A DNA stretch of 32,000 nucleotides from Candidatus Methanoperedens sp. (GCA_027460535.1 JAPZAR010000030.1:30001-62000); one strand, 5' to 3'. Counted from the stretch's first letter, positions 15,580 to 17,709 are shown. Translations and numbers: made by a program. Notes: generated by a model from the sequence alone, not told the origin.

Positions 15580-17709
15580 TCACTTAGCATTAAATCCTTG
15601 TTCCCAGACACTCCTTACATAATCGATATGAGCTTCCATGTGCTTAATTGCTCTTTCTTCATCTTTGTCGATGATAGCATCCAATATTTTGCTGTGTTGA
15701 CGTAAAGTCTCAAAAGATTGAACTTGTCTGCTTAGCGGAGATAATGATCTATATAACAATCTGCAAATATCATAGAATAGACTGTTTCCACTTGCGACAG
15801 ATATCCCCACATGGAAGTCAAAATCATACTCCCATATATCCTTCTCCTTTGCTTTTTCATCTCCTAGAGCTTTTTCAAATTCTCCTAAAATGGTCTTTAG
15901 AGCCTCTATGTTCCGAGTATCTCTATATTTTGCTGCCAGTCTTACTGAACTTAACTCCATCTGTTTGCGGACTTCCCAAATCGCTTCAAAAGTGCAGATA
16001 TCTTTTCTATAATCTGTTCGGAGTTTTTCAGTTAAAATATCGAAGAAGTGATTGATATCTATGTTAAAAATTACAGTATTATTACTCTCCCAAAAATTAA
16101 GTTCAACTTCTGTTGGATCTCTCATAATGGCATAGAACTGAACCTTGTTCTCTAAATGCCGATTGGTATCTTTAATAATATTATTAATGTTATCATCATC
16201 CAGACTATATCCAACAAATAAAATGGTTTTTATGAAAAAAAGCTCCTCGAGTTTATTGAAGATAATATAATCTCTATCAAAGGAACCATGTATTTTGTAA
16301 ATTGTTGTATCAGATTTCATCTCCAACATGTCTTTATCTTCTTGAATTAGATTAATTCTTCCTCTACGTTTTTTGATCGCATCTTCTAAAATGCAGTCAT
16401 TATTCGTTGTGATAGAATTTTTGATAGTTAAAATATCTGCAATCTTTTCATAAATCGAGGAATTACCGCCACGATTCATGATAACGTCTGTTAATCCGGA
16501 ACCAATAAATAAAACTGCATTCCCCTCAAATATCTCAGTAATTAATCGTTTCAAACTAATCTGATCAAAAAAGGGAGGATTATATGTAGGAATAAACCCA
16601 TTTCTAACTAAATCTTGTTCCATTTCAGCGGGTTTGTATGAAAAAACATCGAATTGACTTAATTCGCAATTCTTGTAGGAAATATAACCTGGAGCTACGC
16701 TACAAAGAGCGGCCGTGATAGATCCTCCGCCATCATTCAACAATTCCATAATCATCTCTTTTTTTTCTCTTGTACTTATGAAAATATGTGAATATGGGAA
16801 TGCCAGTCTAAGAATTGCGGTGATAAGCTTCAAGTGGTTATCGGAGACCTGATATTCATGCTTTGGCTGGAATGTCATTCTAGTAGCTGTTTTCAAACGA
16901 GGTATCCCAAATATCGGAAAGCAGTTGAATTTATTTCTTAAAAACAATCCATGTTTGATCAATGCCATGATATCGAATTTGAAATCATATAATCCGAGCA
17001 ACACACCAATCCCCACATTTCTTATTCCACTATTACAAATTCTTTCTTGAGTTTCTAGCCTGTACTGATAATCTTTTTTTGAAACACACTCTTTATGAAG
17101 CTCGTCGTATGTTTTCTGGTGATATGTTTCCTGCCACGATAGCACACTGTCTAAACCCACACTCTTCAACGAACTATAACTCTCCTGCGATAAAGGAGGA
17201 GAGTTTAAACCAATCATCCCACCACCTTCTTTCTGCGTTAGTTTATTTTTCAAATATCTTATATATTCCATCATTTCCTTTATGCCAATTTTCGGGTCGT
17301 CTGAGAAAACCAATTCTATTGTTCTAAAACTATTTTCTTCCGTCAAATAATCAATTTCCTTACAATATTGGTCAAAAAATAAGCGGGTTCTGCTGTGGCT
17401 GTCATTATTACAATTAAATGCACAATAAGGACATTTGTTTATACAATAATTTGTAATGTAAAGCGGAACCATTAGATTTATTTGATGTCCTAGCGCATCA
17501 TTCCTGACACACCTTGCAGTTTTCAACAGATTATGAAAATCTTTATTATTGGTGTTTGGATCTATATGGAGAAGTGAAGCAATTTCTAGTTCATTCAGCT
17601 CTTTTAATTTTTGCGCCTTCTCAAGAACTTTGTCAACATTCTTAAGTTCTGATTTTCCCTTATCTAAAAGATAATTGATTTCATCAGGGTCTATGCTAAA
17701 TCCATTCAT
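15580..17709 (-). CDS. Triple-domain fusion: ThiH/HydG-like radical-SAM enzyme + SIR2-like domain + FCD (FadR C-terminal) ligand-binding domain
   Basis: 709 aa.
- aa 1 to about 380: CxxxCxxC 'CINKCPYC' (C89/C93/C96, nt 17422-17445), with 'SWQETYH', 'YRLET', 'GIPRLK' and 'ISTRE' colinear with ThiH.
- aa about 385-565: 'VLFIGSGLT', 'IYKIHGSFD' and 'ILFVGYSLDDDNIN' resemble the SIR2_2 family.
- aa about 570-705: 'DFDFHVGISVASGN' and 'QHSKILDAIIDKDEERAIKHMEAHI' are FCD hallmarks.

An AAGAGGT Shine-Dalgarno-like site precedes the ATG. Confidence 0.8.
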   Translation of the reverse strand: MNGFSIDPDEINYLLDKGKSELKNVDKVLEKAQKLKELNELEIASLLHIDPNTNNKDFHNLLKTARCVRNDALGHQINLMVPLYITNYCINKCPYCAFNCNNDSHSRTRLFFDQYCKEIDYLTEENSFRTIELVFSDDPKIGIKEMMEYIRYLKNKLTQKEGGGMIGLNSPPLSQESYSSLKSVGLDSVLSWQETYHQKTYDELHKECVSKKDYQYRLETQERICNSGIRNVGIGVLLGLYDFKFDIMALIKHGLFLRNKFNCFPIFGIPRLKTATRMTFQPKHEYQVSDNHLKLITAILRLAFPYSHIFISTREKKEMIMELLNDGGGSITAALCSVAPGYISYKNCELSQFDVFSYKPAEMEQDLVRNGFIPTYNPPFFDQISLKRLITEIFEGNAVLFIGSGLTDVIMNRGGNSSIYEKIADILTIKNSITTNNDCILEDAIKKRRGRINLIQEDKDMLEMKSDTTIYKIHGSFDRDYIIFNKLEELFFIKTILFVGYSLDDDNINNIIKDTNRHLENKVQFYAIMRDPTEVELNFWESNNTVIFNIDINHFFDILTEKLRTDYRKDICTFEAIWEVRKQMELSSVRLAAKYRDTRNIEALKTILGEFEKALGDEKAKEKDIWEYDFDFHVGISVASGNSLFYDICRLLYRSLSPLSRQVQSFETLRQHSKILDAIIDKDEERAIKHMEAHIDYVRSVWEQGFNAK

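What the first reader, a model, noticed from the sequence alone, without database searches (positions are those of the whole stretch)
15580..17709. Single ORF fusing a ThiH/HydG-like radical-SAM enzyme, a SIR2-like domain and an FCD ligand-sensing domain
What the sequence shows: one uninterrupted 709-aa frame carries three colinear signature sets.
1. A full-length ThiH-type radical-SAM region. It has the CxxxCxxC cluster motif 'CINKCPYC' at nt 17422-17445, plus 'SWQETYH', 'YRLET', 'GIPRLK' and 'ISTRE' in ThiH order.
2. 'LFIGSGLT', 'KIHGSFD' and 'LFVGYSLDDDN', which resemble the SIR2_2 family.
3. 'FHVGISVASGN' and 'QHSKILDAIIDKDEERAIKHMEAHI', the hallmarks of the FadR/GntR C-terminal (FCD) effector-binding domain. 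No DNA-binding wHTH is attached here.

Established knowledge:
- SIR2-like domains are NAD+-depleting effectors in Thoeris ThsA, DSR1/DSR2, SIR2-HerA and SIR2-pAgo systems.
- Radical-SAM enzymes make antiviral nucleotides in prokaryotic viperins.
- The ThiH, HydG and NosL clade cleaves aromatic amino acids.
- FCD domains bind small carboxylate or metal ligands.

Inference: I know of no described system that combines these three modules. The gene sits in an AT-rich, TA-rich accessory island. It could therefore be a ligand-gated effector of a novel defence or stress system. Alternatively it could be a novel small-molecule biosynthetic or signalling enzyme.
Basis: partly seen in the sequence, partly recalled or inferred. 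Interest (0 to 1): 0.88.

Follow-up and report, generated by a model that had tools for sequence, protein, structure and literature searches.

The report
Rare radical-SAM/SIR2/FCD fusion enzyme gene
One gene in a methane-oxidising archaeon fuses three protein modules never before reported together, is almost absent from all public sequence data, and looks like a mobile small-molecule-gated enzyme of a virus-defence type whose chemistry is untested.

Summary
The ORF at 15580..17709 (minus strand, 709 aa) has three modules:
- a ThiH/HydG-type radical-SAM barrel (aa 1-378);
- a defence-type SIR2-like domain (aa 383-565);
- an FCD ligand-binding domain with no DNA-binding domain (aa 566-709).

Profile searches and a confident AlphaFold model both support this. 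The architecture is extremely rare. It occurs in 4 of 1.84 billion protein clusters and at 4 loci in 185,579 species genomes, mostly Candidatus Methanoperedens plus one gammaproteobacterium.

1. The barrel is neither ThiH nor HydG. Two residues that recognise the tyrosine phenolate are replaced, and HydG's auxiliary-cluster domain is absent.
2. The SIR2 catalytic residues are intact here. They are broken in 6 of 9 archaeal relatives, although the domain stays under purifying selection. NAD+ hydrolysis is therefore probably not the conserved activity. The radical-SAM cysteines and the FCD metal site are invariant.
3. In every Methanoperedens locus the gene neighbours a HEAT-repeat protein with swappable defence-type end domains (here a nitrilase).

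The gene is AT-rich in every host and was inserted as a single gene in the bacterium. The best reading is an autonomous, ligand-gated conflict enzyme. Its function is inferred, not shown.

The parts
15580..17709 (-). Complete CDS (709 aa plus stop) of the radical-SAM / SIR2-like / FCD fusion protein
   Evidence: ORF list. Pfam, NCBIfam and PADLOC hits. AlphaFold model with pLDDT 82.8. dN/dS about 0.2 in all three modules.
17485..17709 (-). N-terminal helical domain (aa 1-75), typical of the BioB/HydE/HydG/ThiH/NosL clade
   Evidence: Helices 8-73 in the model. Aligned to HydG 4wcx from aa 7. PMC9046217 describes the equivalent alpha-domain in ThiH.
16576..17484 (-). Radical-SAM TIM-barrel (aa 76-378), ThiH/HydG-like amino-acid-lyase type
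   Evidence: HydG 4wcx 1e-57 and ThiH 7pd1 3e-31. Foldseek target-normalised TM-score (TMt) 0.76-0.85. TIGR02351 and TIGR03955 hits are below cutoff.
17422..17445 (-). CxxxCxxC [4Fe-4S]/SAM cluster motif (C89, C93, C96)
   Evidence: Invariant in every full-length family member.
16765..16776 (-). STRE motif (S312-E315). T313 and R314 correspond to ThiH T299 and R300, which bind the substrate amino and carboxyl groups
   Evidence: Alignment to 7pd1, with residue roles from PMC9046217. Invariant in the family. Downstream, R306 becomes I320 and S321 becomes L335.
16015..16563 (-). SIR2-like Rossmann domain (aa 383-565), defence-sirtuin type, in a trimmed form
   Evidence: PF13289 4.4e-19. ThsA, LmuA and SIR2 PADLOC models. 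DSR2, ThsA and KomC by sequence and by fold. Deletions of about 55 aa and 18 aa relative to the long-form homologues.
16402..16404 (-). N436, the equivalent of the catalytic Asn in the TTNYD motif
   Evidence: Aligned to DSR2, ThsA and KomC 'TTNYD'. It is Asp in L012 and P0004.
16288..16290 (-). H474, the equivalent of the SIR2 catalytic His (DSR2 H171)
   Evidence: Aligned to 'KVHGDF', 'KMHGD' and 'KFHGDF'. Replaced by Y, R or P in L006, P0005, L011 and L005.
15583..16014 (-). FCD helical-bundle ligand-binding domain (aa 566-709) without a wHTH. Metal/ligand residues are D629, H633, H672 and H694
   Evidence: PF07729 1.1e-18. NanR, LldR, GlcC and PdhR-type hits. The His triad spacing of 39/22 matches TM0439's 40/22 (PMC7674646). 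These residues are invariant in all members.
17710..18091 (.). 382-bp AT-rich divergent intergenic region between the fusion gene and the HEAT partner
   Evidence: Sequence. It lies inside the block shared with L002. No promoter analysis was done for archaeal signals.
18092..20635 (+). Linked neighbour, an 847-aa protein. HEAT repeats aa 1-325, family-specific helical module aa 328-566, nitrilase-type domain aa 581-844
   Evidence: Pfam HEAT_2 2.6e-36. PADLOC CARF_nitrilase 3.1e-86 and RT_UG5-nitrilase 1e-10. E633/K681/C718 triad conserved. A homologue is adjacent in all 8 Methanoperedens-type loci. Model pLDDT 83.7.
19832..20623 (+). Nitrilase-superfamily (CN-hydrolase-like) effector domain of the neighbour
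   Evidence: PADLOC PDLC01989 aa 581-844. Weak profile hits to the DRT1 nitrilase domain (9yfd) and to Nit3 (1f89). No Pfam PF00795 hit on this sequence, but family members P0322 and P0328 carry PF00795.
15404..19487 (.). DNA block shared at 92.6% identity with a different genomic location in a related Methanoperedens genome (L002/L003). It covers the fusion gene plus the 5' two-thirds of the HEAT gene
   Evidence: blastn of window against L002, L003 and L004. The flanking genes are unrelated.

Best explanation
Shown:
- The gene encodes one polypeptide with three modules. These are a complete ThiH/HydG-clade radical-SAM barrel, a defence-type SIR2-like Rossmann domain, and a metal-dependent FCD small-ligand-binding domain that has no DNA-binding partner.
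- The fusion is old relative to the family. Each module is 42-44% identical to the bacterial homologue.
- The fusion evolves as a unit under purifying selection.
- It is AT-rich in every host. It moved into a 57-68% GC bacterial chromosome as a single gene.

Inferred: it is an autonomous, horizontally mobile, ligand-gated enzyme of the biological-conflict (antiviral or anti-mobile-element) type. The proposed steps are:
1. The conserved catalytic engine is the radical-SAM domain. It reductively cleaves SAM and attacks an alpha-amino-acid-like substrate held by T313 and R314. The side-chain pocket is more hydrophobic than in tyrosine lyases, so the substrate is probably not tyrosine.
2. This either generates a small product or drains SAM and the substrate.
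3. The FCD domain, with its invariant Asp/His3 metal site of the kind that binds small (hydroxy/keto) carboxylates, acts as the on/off sensor. It may read the lyase's own iminoacetate/glyoxylate-like product or an infection or stress metabolite.
4. The SIR2-like domain takes the place of HydG's C-terminal domain as a nucleotide-binding/relay module. In the long-form proteins, and possibly in this window's protein (N436 and H474 intact), it may still hydrolyse NAD+. That activity is dispensable in the archaeal clade.
5. In Methanoperedens the gene travels with a HEAT-repeat scaffold protein whose end domain is exchangeable (nitrilase here, an IetA/TRIP13-like AAA+ ATPase elsewhere). That protein probably supplies target recognition or a second effector.
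For: Architecture and fold.

Conserved catalytic and ligand residues: the radical-SAM Cys triad, the STRE motif, and FCD D629/H633/H672/H694 are invariant in all members. The FCD metal-triad spacing matches published FCD structures.

Selection: dN/dS is 0.13-0.37 for every module.

Rarity and patchiness:
- 4 clusters in 1.84e9 representatives.
- 4 loci in 185,579 species, spanning Archaea and Gammaproteobacteria.
- None in JGI metagenome contigs, viral contigs, plasmids or phages.

Horizontal transfer:
- The gene is 30-37% GC in hosts of 32-57% GC, with a sharp single-gene GC trough in Ca. Thiosymbion.
- The same 4.1-kb block sits at a different chromosomal site in a 97%-identical relative.

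Defence flavour:
- The closest SIR2 relatives by sequence and fold are DSR2, ThsA and KomC.
- The neighbour is a HEAT protein with a CARF/DRT-type nitrilase (3e-86) or an IetA/TRIP13-like AAA+ domain.
- It is adjacent in 8 of 8 archaeal loci, in two different gene orders.
- The HEAT family swaps enzymatic end domains.
- HicAB and a MazF remnant flank the gene.
- A TIR/SEFIR gene lies 3.5 kb away in the bacterial locus.
Against: - No experiment and no known defence-system model covers it. PADLOC gives only partial SIR2-domain hits.
- The two linked genes are divergent or convergent, never co-directional. That is atypical for defence operons.
- The two gene orders correspond to two subclades, so the number of independent observations of linkage is small.
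- The bacterial homologue and P0010 have no HEAT neighbour.
- HEAT-family genes are common in Methanosarcinales and usually stand alone.
- The family was never seen on a virus, plasmid or recognised mobile element. No integrase or flanking repeats were found.
- The substrate, the product and the FCD ligand are all unknown. The proposed product-sensing role of FCD is speculation.
- The inter-domain geometry of the model could not be inspected.
Confidence: 0.4

Rival explanations
1. The SIR2 domain is the executioner: an NAD+-depleting abortive-infection effector. FCD ligand binding switches it on. The radical-SAM domain plays an auxiliary role, making or destroying the signal.
For: - The window protein keeps all three SIR2 hallmarks: the GSG loop, N436 and H474. 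They align to the catalytic residues of DSR2, ThsA and KomC.
- The long-form homologues (L001, P0009, P0010) have fully canonical motifs.
- Foldseek places the domain with NADase defence sirtuins.
- The context is defence-like.
Against: - Six of 9 archaeal-clade members have lost the His (to Y, R or P), the Asn (to D) or the whole GxG loop. Yet the domain remains under purifying selection, with dN/dS of 0.18-0.37.
- The entire clade, including the window protein, lacks about 55 aa between the GxG loop and TTNYD and about 18 aa after the His. In DSR2 and ThsA these regions are present.
- By contrast the radical-SAM and FCD functional residues are invariant.
Confidence: 0.2
2. The gene is not a conflict system. 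It is an accessory metabolic or signalling enzyme. In this view an aromatic or hydrophobic amino-acid lyase makes a small molecule (a cresol/skatole-like compound plus iminoacetate). The FCD domain controls it allosterically through a carboxylate metabolite. The SIR2-like domain serves as a nucleotide-binding or structural domain. The HEAT neighbour is coincidental island cargo.
For: - All characterised members of this radical-SAM clade (ThiH, HydG, NosL, CofH, PylB, BioB, HydE) are biosynthetic.
- FCD domains classically report metabolite levels such as lactate, glycolate, pyruvate and sialic acid.
- The SIR2 catalytic residues are dispensable.
- The bacterial copy sits between the redox-homeostasis genes dsbD and an ahpC-like gene.
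- The two archaeal genes are never co-directional.
Against: - No biosynthetic partner genes are conserved next to the gene in any locus.
- Extreme rarity, patchy cross-domain distribution and a foreign GC content argue against a pathway role.
- The SIR2 module is specifically of the defence-sirtuin type.
- Adjacency to a HEAT protein with a defence-type nitrilase or AAA+ domain in 8 of 8 archaeal loci and in two gene orders is unlikely by chance.
Confidence: 0.25
3. The gene is an artefact or is decaying. Either the long frame is a chimeric assembly or read-through fusion of separate genes, or it is a pseudogenising relic with no function.
For: - P0010 is a 5'-truncated remnant with stop codons upstream.
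- P0007 and P0121 are fragments.
- SIR2 motifs erode in several members.
Against: - The identical domain order in one frame occurs in at least 8 independent assemblies and in a 37%-identical bacterial homologue.
- There are no internal stops.
- dN/dS is about 0.2 in all modules.
- The three-domain model is confident.
Confidence: 0.02

Closest known systems
HydG ([FeFe]-hydrogenase maturase, tyrosine lyase) and ThiH (2-iminoacetate synthase)
   Same: - The N-terminal helical domain plus radical-SAM TIM barrel is colinear over aa 7-377 (4wcx 1e-57, 7pd1 3e-31; Foldseek target-normalised TM-score 0.76-0.85).
- It has the CxxxCxxC motif.
- It keeps the STRE motif, with the substrate-binding Thr and Arg.
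- It has Asn at the ThiH-E158 position, as HydG does.
   Different: - It scores far below both NCBIfam equivalog cutoffs.
- The phenolate-binding R306 and S321 are Ile and Leu.
- HydG's C-terminal auxiliary Fe-S domain is replaced by SIR2 plus FCD.
- No thiG/thiS or hydE/hydF neighbours are present.
- The host archaeon has no obvious need for either pathway (own knowledge).
Defence sirtuins: DSR2, Thoeris ThsA, Kongming KomC
   Same: - These are the best sequence and fold matches for aa 383-565.
- The GxG loop, the TTN(Y)D Asn and the HG His are present in the window protein.
- Like DSR2, which joins SIR2 to a HEAT-like sensor, this locus pairs a SIR2-containing protein with a HEAT-repeat protein. 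This last point is a lead from my own knowledge of DSR2, not a test.
   Different: - There is no SLOG/STALD, Macro or HEAT sensor in the same chain.
- There is no ThsB, KomA or KomB partner.
- The domain is trimmed by about 73 aa.
- The catalytic residues are not conserved among close relatives.
- The sensor domain is an FCD, which has not been reported in any SIR2 system.
FadR/GntR-family FCD effector domains (NanR, LldR, GlcC, PdhR, DgoR, TM0439)
   Same: It is a full-length FCD helical bundle (PF07729 1e-18). The D-x3-H...H...H metal/ligand site is conserved with canonical spacing.
   Different: - It has no winged-helix DNA-binding domain.
- It is attached to two enzyme-type domains and not to a transcription-factor domain.
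- In 1.84e9 protein clusters the SIR2+FCD pairing exists only in this family.
Prokaryotic viperins (pVips)
   Same: Only at the level of concept: a radical-SAM enzyme used in antiviral defence (own knowledge).
   Different: The radical-SAM clade is different (viperin/MoaA-like against BioB/ThiH/HydG-like). No sequence relationship was detected in PADLOC. The substrate class is different (nucleotides against amino-acid-like).
CARF-nitrilase (type III CRISPR ancillary) and DRT1 RT-nitrilase (applies to the neighbour gene)
   Same: - The neighbour's aa 581-844 match the nitrilase part of PADLOC CARF_m7--CARF_nitrilase at 3.1e-86, and RT_UG5-nitrilase at 1e-10.
- The E-K-C triad is conserved.
- A profile of the domain hits the DRT1 structure 9yfd.
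   Different: There is no CARF or reverse-transcriptase domain. The nitrilase is instead fused to about 9 HEAT repeats and a family-specific helical module. In sister loci the nitrilase is replaced by other domains.

Membership tests
Radical SAM superfamily (PF04055) | Profile hit above the gathering threshold, plus the CxxxCxxC cluster motif | tested here: met
   39.7 bits against a 29.5 cutoff. C89/C93/C96 are invariant.
ThiH, 2-iminoacetate synthase (TIGR02351) | Score at or above the equivalog cutoff | tested here: not met
   206.6 bits against a cutoff of 380.
ThiH / HydG tyrosine lyases | The strictly conserved L-tyrosine-binding set: T299, R300, R306, S318, S321 (plus E158, or E128 in HydG) | tested here: not met
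   T313 and R314 are kept. S318 becomes T332 (Ser in some members). R306 becomes I320 and S321 becomes L335 throughout the family. E158 becomes N169 with no aligned compensating Glu (V134; E132 lies two residues away). Sources.
ThiH | Genomic association with thiazole-synthesis genes (thiG, thiS, thiF) | tested here: not met
   None is among the neighbours in the window or in any homologous locus. thiC lies 11 kb away, separated by unrelated genes.
HydG (TIGR03955) | Score at or above the equivalog cutoff | tested here: not met
   180.9 bits against a cutoff of 312.15.
HydG | C-terminal domain carrying the auxiliary Fe-S cluster (Cys-rich motif after the barrel) | tested here: not met
   Homology ends at aa 377. 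HydG's '...PSYCTACYR' region (A2 consensus) corresponds to 'PTYNPPFF' here, followed by the SIR2 domain.
SIR2_2 (PF13289), defence-type sirtuin fold | Profile hit above the gathering threshold and a Rossmann fold matching defence SIR2 structures | tested here: met
   69.4 bits against a 24.5 cutoff. DSR2 and KomC by Foldseek at about 1e-6. DSR2, ThsA and KomC by sequence.
Catalytically active SIR2 NADase | Conserved GxG loop, catalytic Asn and catalytic His | tested here: inconclusive
   All three are present in the window protein (G403-S-G405, N436, H474). At least one is lost in 6 of 9 archaeal-clade members, and the clade carries deletions of about 55 aa and 18 aa.
Catalytically active SIR2 NADase | NAD+ hydrolysis | not testable with these tools
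   This needs a biochemical assay.
Thoeris (ThsA/ThsB) | SLOG/STALD or Macro sensor domain in ThsA, plus an adjacent TIR protein ThsB | tested here: not met
   The PADLOC ThsA hits cover only the SIR2 part (profile 96-230 of 478). No TIR gene is present in the window.
SIR2-HerA | A HerA ATPase gene adjacent to the SIR2 gene | tested here: not met
   A HerA-like gene exists at 1504-3210. It is 12 kb away, beyond housekeeping genes, and is absent from the other loci.
DSR2 | SIR2 fused in one chain to a large C-terminal repeat sensor | tested here: not met
   The chain ends in an FCD domain. HEAT repeats are on a separate neighbouring gene.
FCD domain (PF07729) | Profile hit above the gathering threshold, plus conserved metal-binding residues | tested here: met
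   68.3 bits against a 24.3 cutoff. D629, H633, H672 and H694 are invariant, with spacing as in TM0439.
GntR/FadR transcription regulators | N-terminal winged-helix DNA-binding domain | tested here: not met
   No GntR/wHTH hit anywhere in the protein. The regulator hits cover only their C-terminal halves.
Nitrilase / CN-hydrolase superfamily (neighbour gene, aa 581-844) | Glu-Lys-Cys catalytic triad and a profile match | tested here: met
   PADLOC CARF_nitrilase 3.1e-86. E633/K681/C718 are conserved. There are weak profile hits to the DRT1 nitrilase and Nit3. Pfam PF00795 itself does not hit this sequence.

The most novel reading that the evidence does not exclude
This is a new kind of single-protein immune or conflict enzyme. 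A HydG/ThiH-clade radical-SAM amino-acid lyase is the effector or the signal generator. It is gated by an FCD metal-carboxylate sensor that has been recruited away from transcription factors. A sirtuin-derived domain serves as relay, or as a second NAD+-directed activity. In Methanoperedens the enzyme cooperates with a HEAT-repeat scaffold that carries exchangeable effectors. If true, this would be the first radical-SAM lyase chemistry and the first FCD sensor found in prokaryotic immunity.
Probability: 0.3. Interest if true: 0.85.

Novelty: new variant of a known kind. Interest (0 to 1): 0.62.

Why it matters
If the inferred role is right, the gene adds a third chemistry to enzyme-based prokaryotic immunity. 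Nucleotide-modifying viperins and NAD+-depleting sirtuins would be joined by radical-SAM Cα-Cβ lyase chemistry.

It would also show that the FCD ligand-sensing domain, known almost only from GntR regulators, can gate enzymes directly.

The gene is also a natural experiment in domain replacement. HydG's cluster-bearing C-terminal domain is swapped for SIR2 plus FCD. That could show how products are channelled out of this barrel.

The linked HEAT-repeat family is of separate interest. Its end domains are exchangeable: nitrilase, nucleoside phosphorylase, methyltransferase or AAA+. It is a large, undescribed modular family in methane-cycling archaea.

Practical impact is limited by the extreme rarity of the fusion and by its uncultivated hosts.

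Tried and rejected
- Word-index search with the C-terminal half. It returned nothing, not even the 97%-identical P0001. The frame was verified, so this is a tool quirk. The exhaustive HMMER search replaced it.
- Scans of JGI metagenome contigs, viral contigs, plasmids and phages. No family member was found. The only hits were generic FCD regulators and a distant radical-SAM protein.
- Foldseek against viral proteins. Only generic radical-SAM hits.
- Insertion signatures around the single-gene insertion in Ca. Thiosymbion. There were no convincing flanking direct repeats. No tRNA or integrase lies near the window's island.
- 'SIR2+FCD alone' as an independent architecture (P0010). Rejected, because it is a 5'-truncated remnant with stop codons upstream.
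- Functional link to the HerA-like gene at 1504-3210 (SIR2-HerA). Rejected on distance and on its absence from other loci.
- Pfam and single-sequence PDB searches on the neighbour's C-terminal domain. Both gave nothing. PADLOC and a family profile identified it as a nitrilase.
- Foldseek on the HEAT partner. It gave only generic HEAT/ARM solenoids, so the central helical module remains unassigned.
- Conserved neighbours of other HEAT-family members. None was found.
- Literature searches for the domain combination. No prior description.

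
Full report
**1. Observation**

The window contains a single uninterrupted 709-codon frame at 15580..17709 on the minus strand. For example, CINKCPYC is aa 89-96, which is nt 17422-17445.

Profile searches confirm three colinear modules.
- Pfam: Radical_SAM aa 84-240 (7e-10). BATS aa 269-324 (20.2 bits, just under the 22.2 cutoff). SIR2_2 aa 433-545 (4.4e-19). FCD aa 577-696 (1.1e-18). No GntR DNA-binding domain.
- NCBIfam: the N-terminal 375 aa fall in the ThiH/HydG clade. ThiH scores 5.6e-61 (206.6 bits) and HydG 3e-53 (180.9 bits). 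Both are far below their equivalog cutoffs of 380 and 312 bits.

An AlphaFold2 model built on a 40-sequence alignment is confident, with pLDDT 82.8 and pTM 0.69. It shows these elements:
- an N-terminal helical domain (aa 8-73);
- a TIM barrel (aa 76-375);
- a Rossmann-type domain (aa 383-564);
- a helical bundle (aa 567-708).

Foldseek against the PDB returns these matches:
- HydG (4wcx, 3e-25);
- ThiH (7pd1/7pd2, target-normalised TM-score 0.84-0.85);
- NosL;
- then, for the middle module, the SIR2 domains of DSR2 and KomC (about 1e-6).

**2. The fusion is real and maintained**

The same architecture in one frame is found in Methanoperedens-type sequences P0001-P0006 (69-97% identity). It is also found in two 785-789-aa proteins at 37% identity.

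Per-domain Nei-Gojobori analysis on the coding DNA of eight loci gave these dN/dS ranges:

| Module | dN/dS |
|---|---|
| radical-SAM part | 0.13-0.23 |
| SIR2 part | 0.18-0.37 |
| FCD part | 0.06-0.29 |

Each module is 42-44% identical to the bacterial homologue. The fusion therefore predates the family's divergence and evolves as one unit. An artefact or a pseudogene is excluded.

**3. Rarity and distribution**

- An exhaustive HMMER search with the SIR2+FCD half against 1.84 billion cluster representatives found both domains together in only four clusters. These are P0001, the fragment P0121, P0009 and P0010. The next hits (E of about 1e-11 or weaker) match only one of the two domains.
- In one genome for each of 185,579 species there are four loci:
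  - two Candidatus Methanoperedens genomes;
  - one contig binned as 'Ruminiclostridium' from a manganese-dependent methane-oxidation enrichment, at 70% identity and with the same neighbour gene, so probably mis-binned;
  - one gammaproteobacterium, the Ca. Thiosymbion ectosymbiont of Catanema.
- No member was found in JGI metagenome contigs, viral contigs, plasmids or phages.
- P0010, which looked like a SIR2+FCD-only protein, is a 5'-truncated remnant. Homology starts at about aa 260 of the query and stop codons lie upstream.
- Public annotation calls these proteins only 'FCD domain-containing protein'.
- Full-text literature searches for the combination returned nothing.

**4. Horizontal acquisition**

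The gene is 30-37% GC in every host, while the surrounding DNA ranges from 32% to 57% GC. In Ca. Thiosymbion the low-GC stretch coincides exactly with this one gene. It covers L001 10000-12400 at 30-41% GC, between flanks of 57-68% GC. It sits between dsbD and an ahpC-like gene. The protein therefore transfers, and presumably functions, as a single gene.

Within Methanoperedens, the window shares a 4.1-kb block (15404..19487, 92.6% identity) with L002/L003, but the flanking genes are unrelated.

The window itself is ordinary chromosome.
- On one side lie thiC, a Hel308-type helicase, uppS, nikR and flavodoxin.
- On the other lie proS, a proteasome subunit, FttA/aCPSF1, an AIR-synthase-related gene, tatC and ilvD.
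- An accessory stretch of about 13 kb interrupts it. This stretch also holds HicA/HicB, a MazF fragment and several ORFs with no family match.

**5. The radical-SAM module**

The cluster cysteines C89, C93 and C96 are invariant.

The ThiH structure paper (PMC9046217) defines the tyrosine site.
- T299 and R300 hold the amino and carboxyl groups.
- T299, S318 and S321 form a 'crown' around the phenolate, backed by R306.
- All of these are 'strictly conserved' in ThiH and HydG.
- E158 is Asn in HydG, where a Glu at position 128 compensates.

The mapping below uses the 7pd1 alignment, in which chain numbering equals paper numbering plus 10.

| ThiH residue | This protein | Status |
|---|---|---|
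| T299 | T313 | kept |
| R300 | R314 | kept |
| S318 | T332 (Ser in some members) | conservative change |
| R306 | I320 | lost |
| S321 | L335 | lost |
| E158 | N169 | as in HydG |
| position 128 | V134 (invariant E132 two residues earlier) | no aligned Glu |

These states hold across the family. The module therefore keeps the machinery to bind an alpha-amino acid next to 5'-deoxyadenosyl radical chemistry. It lacks two determinants of phenolate recognition. I infer an amino-acid-like substrate that need not be tyrosine.

HydG's C-terminal auxiliary-cluster domain is absent. Homology stops at aa 377, and SIR2 plus FCD take its place.

**6. The SIR2 module**

By sequence, the closest solved relatives of aa 380-569 are DSR2 (2e-6), ThsA (5e-6) and KomC (4e-5). 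N436 and H474 align to their catalytic Asn (TTNYD) and His. PADLOC gives partial ThsA, LmuA and SIR2 hits restricted to this domain.

The family alignment shows two complications.
- The whole archaeal clade, including the window protein, lacks about 55 aa between the GxG loop and the Asn motif. It also lacks about 18 aa after the His, relative to the three long-form sequences.
- The catalytic positions are not conserved in that clade:
  - the His is Tyr in L006 and P0005, Arg in L011 and Pro in L005;
  - the Asn is Asp in L012 and P0004;
  - the GxG loop is deleted in L006.

Six of nine archaeal-clade members therefore have at least one broken motif. Yet the domain is under purifying selection. 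I conclude that NAD+ hydrolysis is not the conserved function of this domain in the archaeal clade. The domain is retained for binding or structure. The window protein keeps all three motifs, so residual activity cannot be excluded.

**7. The FCD module**

The best matches are the effector domains of NanR, PhnR, LldR, GlcC and PdhR-type regulators.

Published FCD structures bind a divalent metal through three conserved histidines. In TM0439 these are H134, H174 and H196, with spacing of 40 and 22. DgoR has a D-x3-H element (PMC7674646).

Here D629-x3-H633, H672 and H694 have spacing of 39 and 22, and they are invariant in every family member, fragments included. The ligand site is therefore intact. 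An FCD without a wHTH that is fused to enzymes is unusual. The SIR2+FCD pairing is unique to this family.

**8. The neighbour**

tblastn with the 847-aa product of 18092..20635 shows a homologue immediately next to the fusion gene in all eight Methanoperedens-type loci.
- It is upstream and divergent in the window, L002/L003, L004 and L007/L008.
- It is downstream and convergent in L010, L011, L012 and L005.

The gene order thus differs between the two subclades while adjacency is kept. The bacterial locus and L009 have no such gene.

The neighbour has three parts:
- about nine HEAT repeats;
- a family-specific helical module (aa 328-566);
- a C-terminal domain (aa 581-844).

The evidence on the C-terminal domain is as follows.
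- It matches PADLOC's CARF_m7--CARF_nitrilase model at 3.1e-86 and RT_UG5-nitrilase (DRT) at 1e-10.
- Its Glu633/Lys681/Cys718 triad is conserved.
- A profile of the domain weakly hits the DRT1 nitrilase domain (9yfd) and Nit3.
- Pfam itself is silent.

In L010 the neighbour instead starts with an IetA/TRIP13-like AAA+ ATPase. In L002 it has neither domain.

The wider family has at least 422 hits across Methanosarcinales. It keeps the HEAT and central module and varies the end domain among CN-hydrolase, nucleoside phosphorylase, methyltransferases and AAA+. Other members stand alone. The AlphaFold model (pLDDT 83.7) matches only generic HEAT/ARM protein-binding scaffolds.

This 'constant binder plus exchangeable enzyme' pattern is typical of conflict systems. 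That statement is an inference from my own knowledge; compare PMC7159879.

**9. Interpretation**

What is shown:
- the architecture;
- its rarity and its mobility;
- which residues are conserved and which are not;
- the linkage to the HEAT protein.

What is inferred: the protein is an autonomous, ligand-gated enzyme of the conflict or defence type.
- Its engine is the radical-SAM lyase domain.
- Its switch is the FCD domain.
- The sirtuin-derived domain is a relay and, at most, an optional second activity.

The FCD's relatives sense small hydroxy and keto carboxylates. The canonical product of this lyase clade is 2-iminoacetate, which hydrolyses to glyoxylate. One attractive but untested idea follows. 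The FCD may occupy the place of HydG's product-receiving domain and bind the lyase's own product.

Points against a defence role:
- no known system model matches;
- the two genes are never co-directional;
- linkage has been observed independently only a few times;
- the family is absent from recognised mobile elements.

I put 0.40 on this reading and 0.25 on a non-conflict metabolic or signalling enzyme.

**10. Novelty and score**

Each domain belongs to a known superfamily. The protein fails the membership tests for ThiH, HydG, ThsA, DSR2, SIR2-HerA and GntR regulators. The combination is undescribed and nearly unique in public data.

I rate it a new variant of known kinds (defence-type SIR2 proteins and radical-SAM amino-acid lyases). 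There is a 0.3 chance that it represents a new class of immune enzyme.

Interest is 0.62. A specialist would be surprised by the architecture and by an FCD-gated enzyme. However, the function is inferred and the family is tiny.

Noticed in passing
window 18092-20635, and family hits P0268-P0387: A large, apparently undescribed modular protein family in Methanosarcinales (Methanoperedens, Methanosarcina, ANME-2, Argoarchaeum). It has HEAT repeats plus a conserved helical module plus exchangeable end domains: nitrilase/amidohydrolase, PNP_UDP_1 nucleoside phosphorylase, methyltransferases, or AAA+/Vps4_C. It deserves its own analysis as a candidate conflict-system family.
   Followed up: partly
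window 18188-19012: The HEAT-repeat region is a near-perfect tandem array at the DNA level. Self and cross blastn hits are offset by multiples of 108 bp (36 aa) at 75-86% identity. This suggests recent repeat expansion or recombination.
   Followed up: no
window 21946-24099: Two ORFs (223 aa and 390 aa, minus strand) lie in very AT-rich DNA (20-35% GC). Neither has a Pfam or PADLOC match. They sit between the HEAT gene and proS and are probably further foreign cargo.
   Followed up: partly
window 12963-13435 and 14290-14870: There is an intact HicA/HicB toxin-antitoxin pair. There is also a truncated MazF/PemK toxin (only profile positions 41-109) next to an unassigned 83-aa ORF. These are toxin-antitoxin debris flanking the fusion gene.
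   Followed up: partly
window 1504-3210 and 3207-4472: A HerA-like DUF87 ATPase gene overlaps the start of thiC by 4 nt. PADLOC HerA models hit it at up to 2.5e-47. This is an odd pairing of a HerA-type ATPase with a thiamine-biosynthesis radical-SAM gene. It is not linked to the SIR2 gene 12 kb away.
   Followed up: partly
L012 (VEPD01000261.1): A 4.4-kb contig is binned as 'Ruminiclostridium sp. MnB_11'. It carries the fusion gene at 70% identity and the same HEAT neighbour as the Methanoperedens loci. It is probably a mis-binned Methanoperedenaceae contig.
   Followed up: no
L001 76-6500: Upstream of the bacterial homologue in Ca. Thiosymbion lie three genes. They encode a TIR/SEFIR+FGE-sulfatase protein (484 aa), an 871-aa protein with no family match and a 763-aa Band_7-like protein. 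A Band_7 protein also lies upstream in L005. This may be a defence-island context.
   Followed up: no
L006/L007 2695-5160: In the 79%-identical homologue's locus, the gene immediately downstream encodes a 718-aa eCIS_core (extracellular contractile injection system) domain protein.
   Followed up: no
(tool behaviour): the search for homologous proteins with the 330-aa C-terminal half returned no hit, although a 97%-identical protein is in that database. The frame was verified, so null results from that tool on sub-sequences should be treated with caution.
   Followed up: yes
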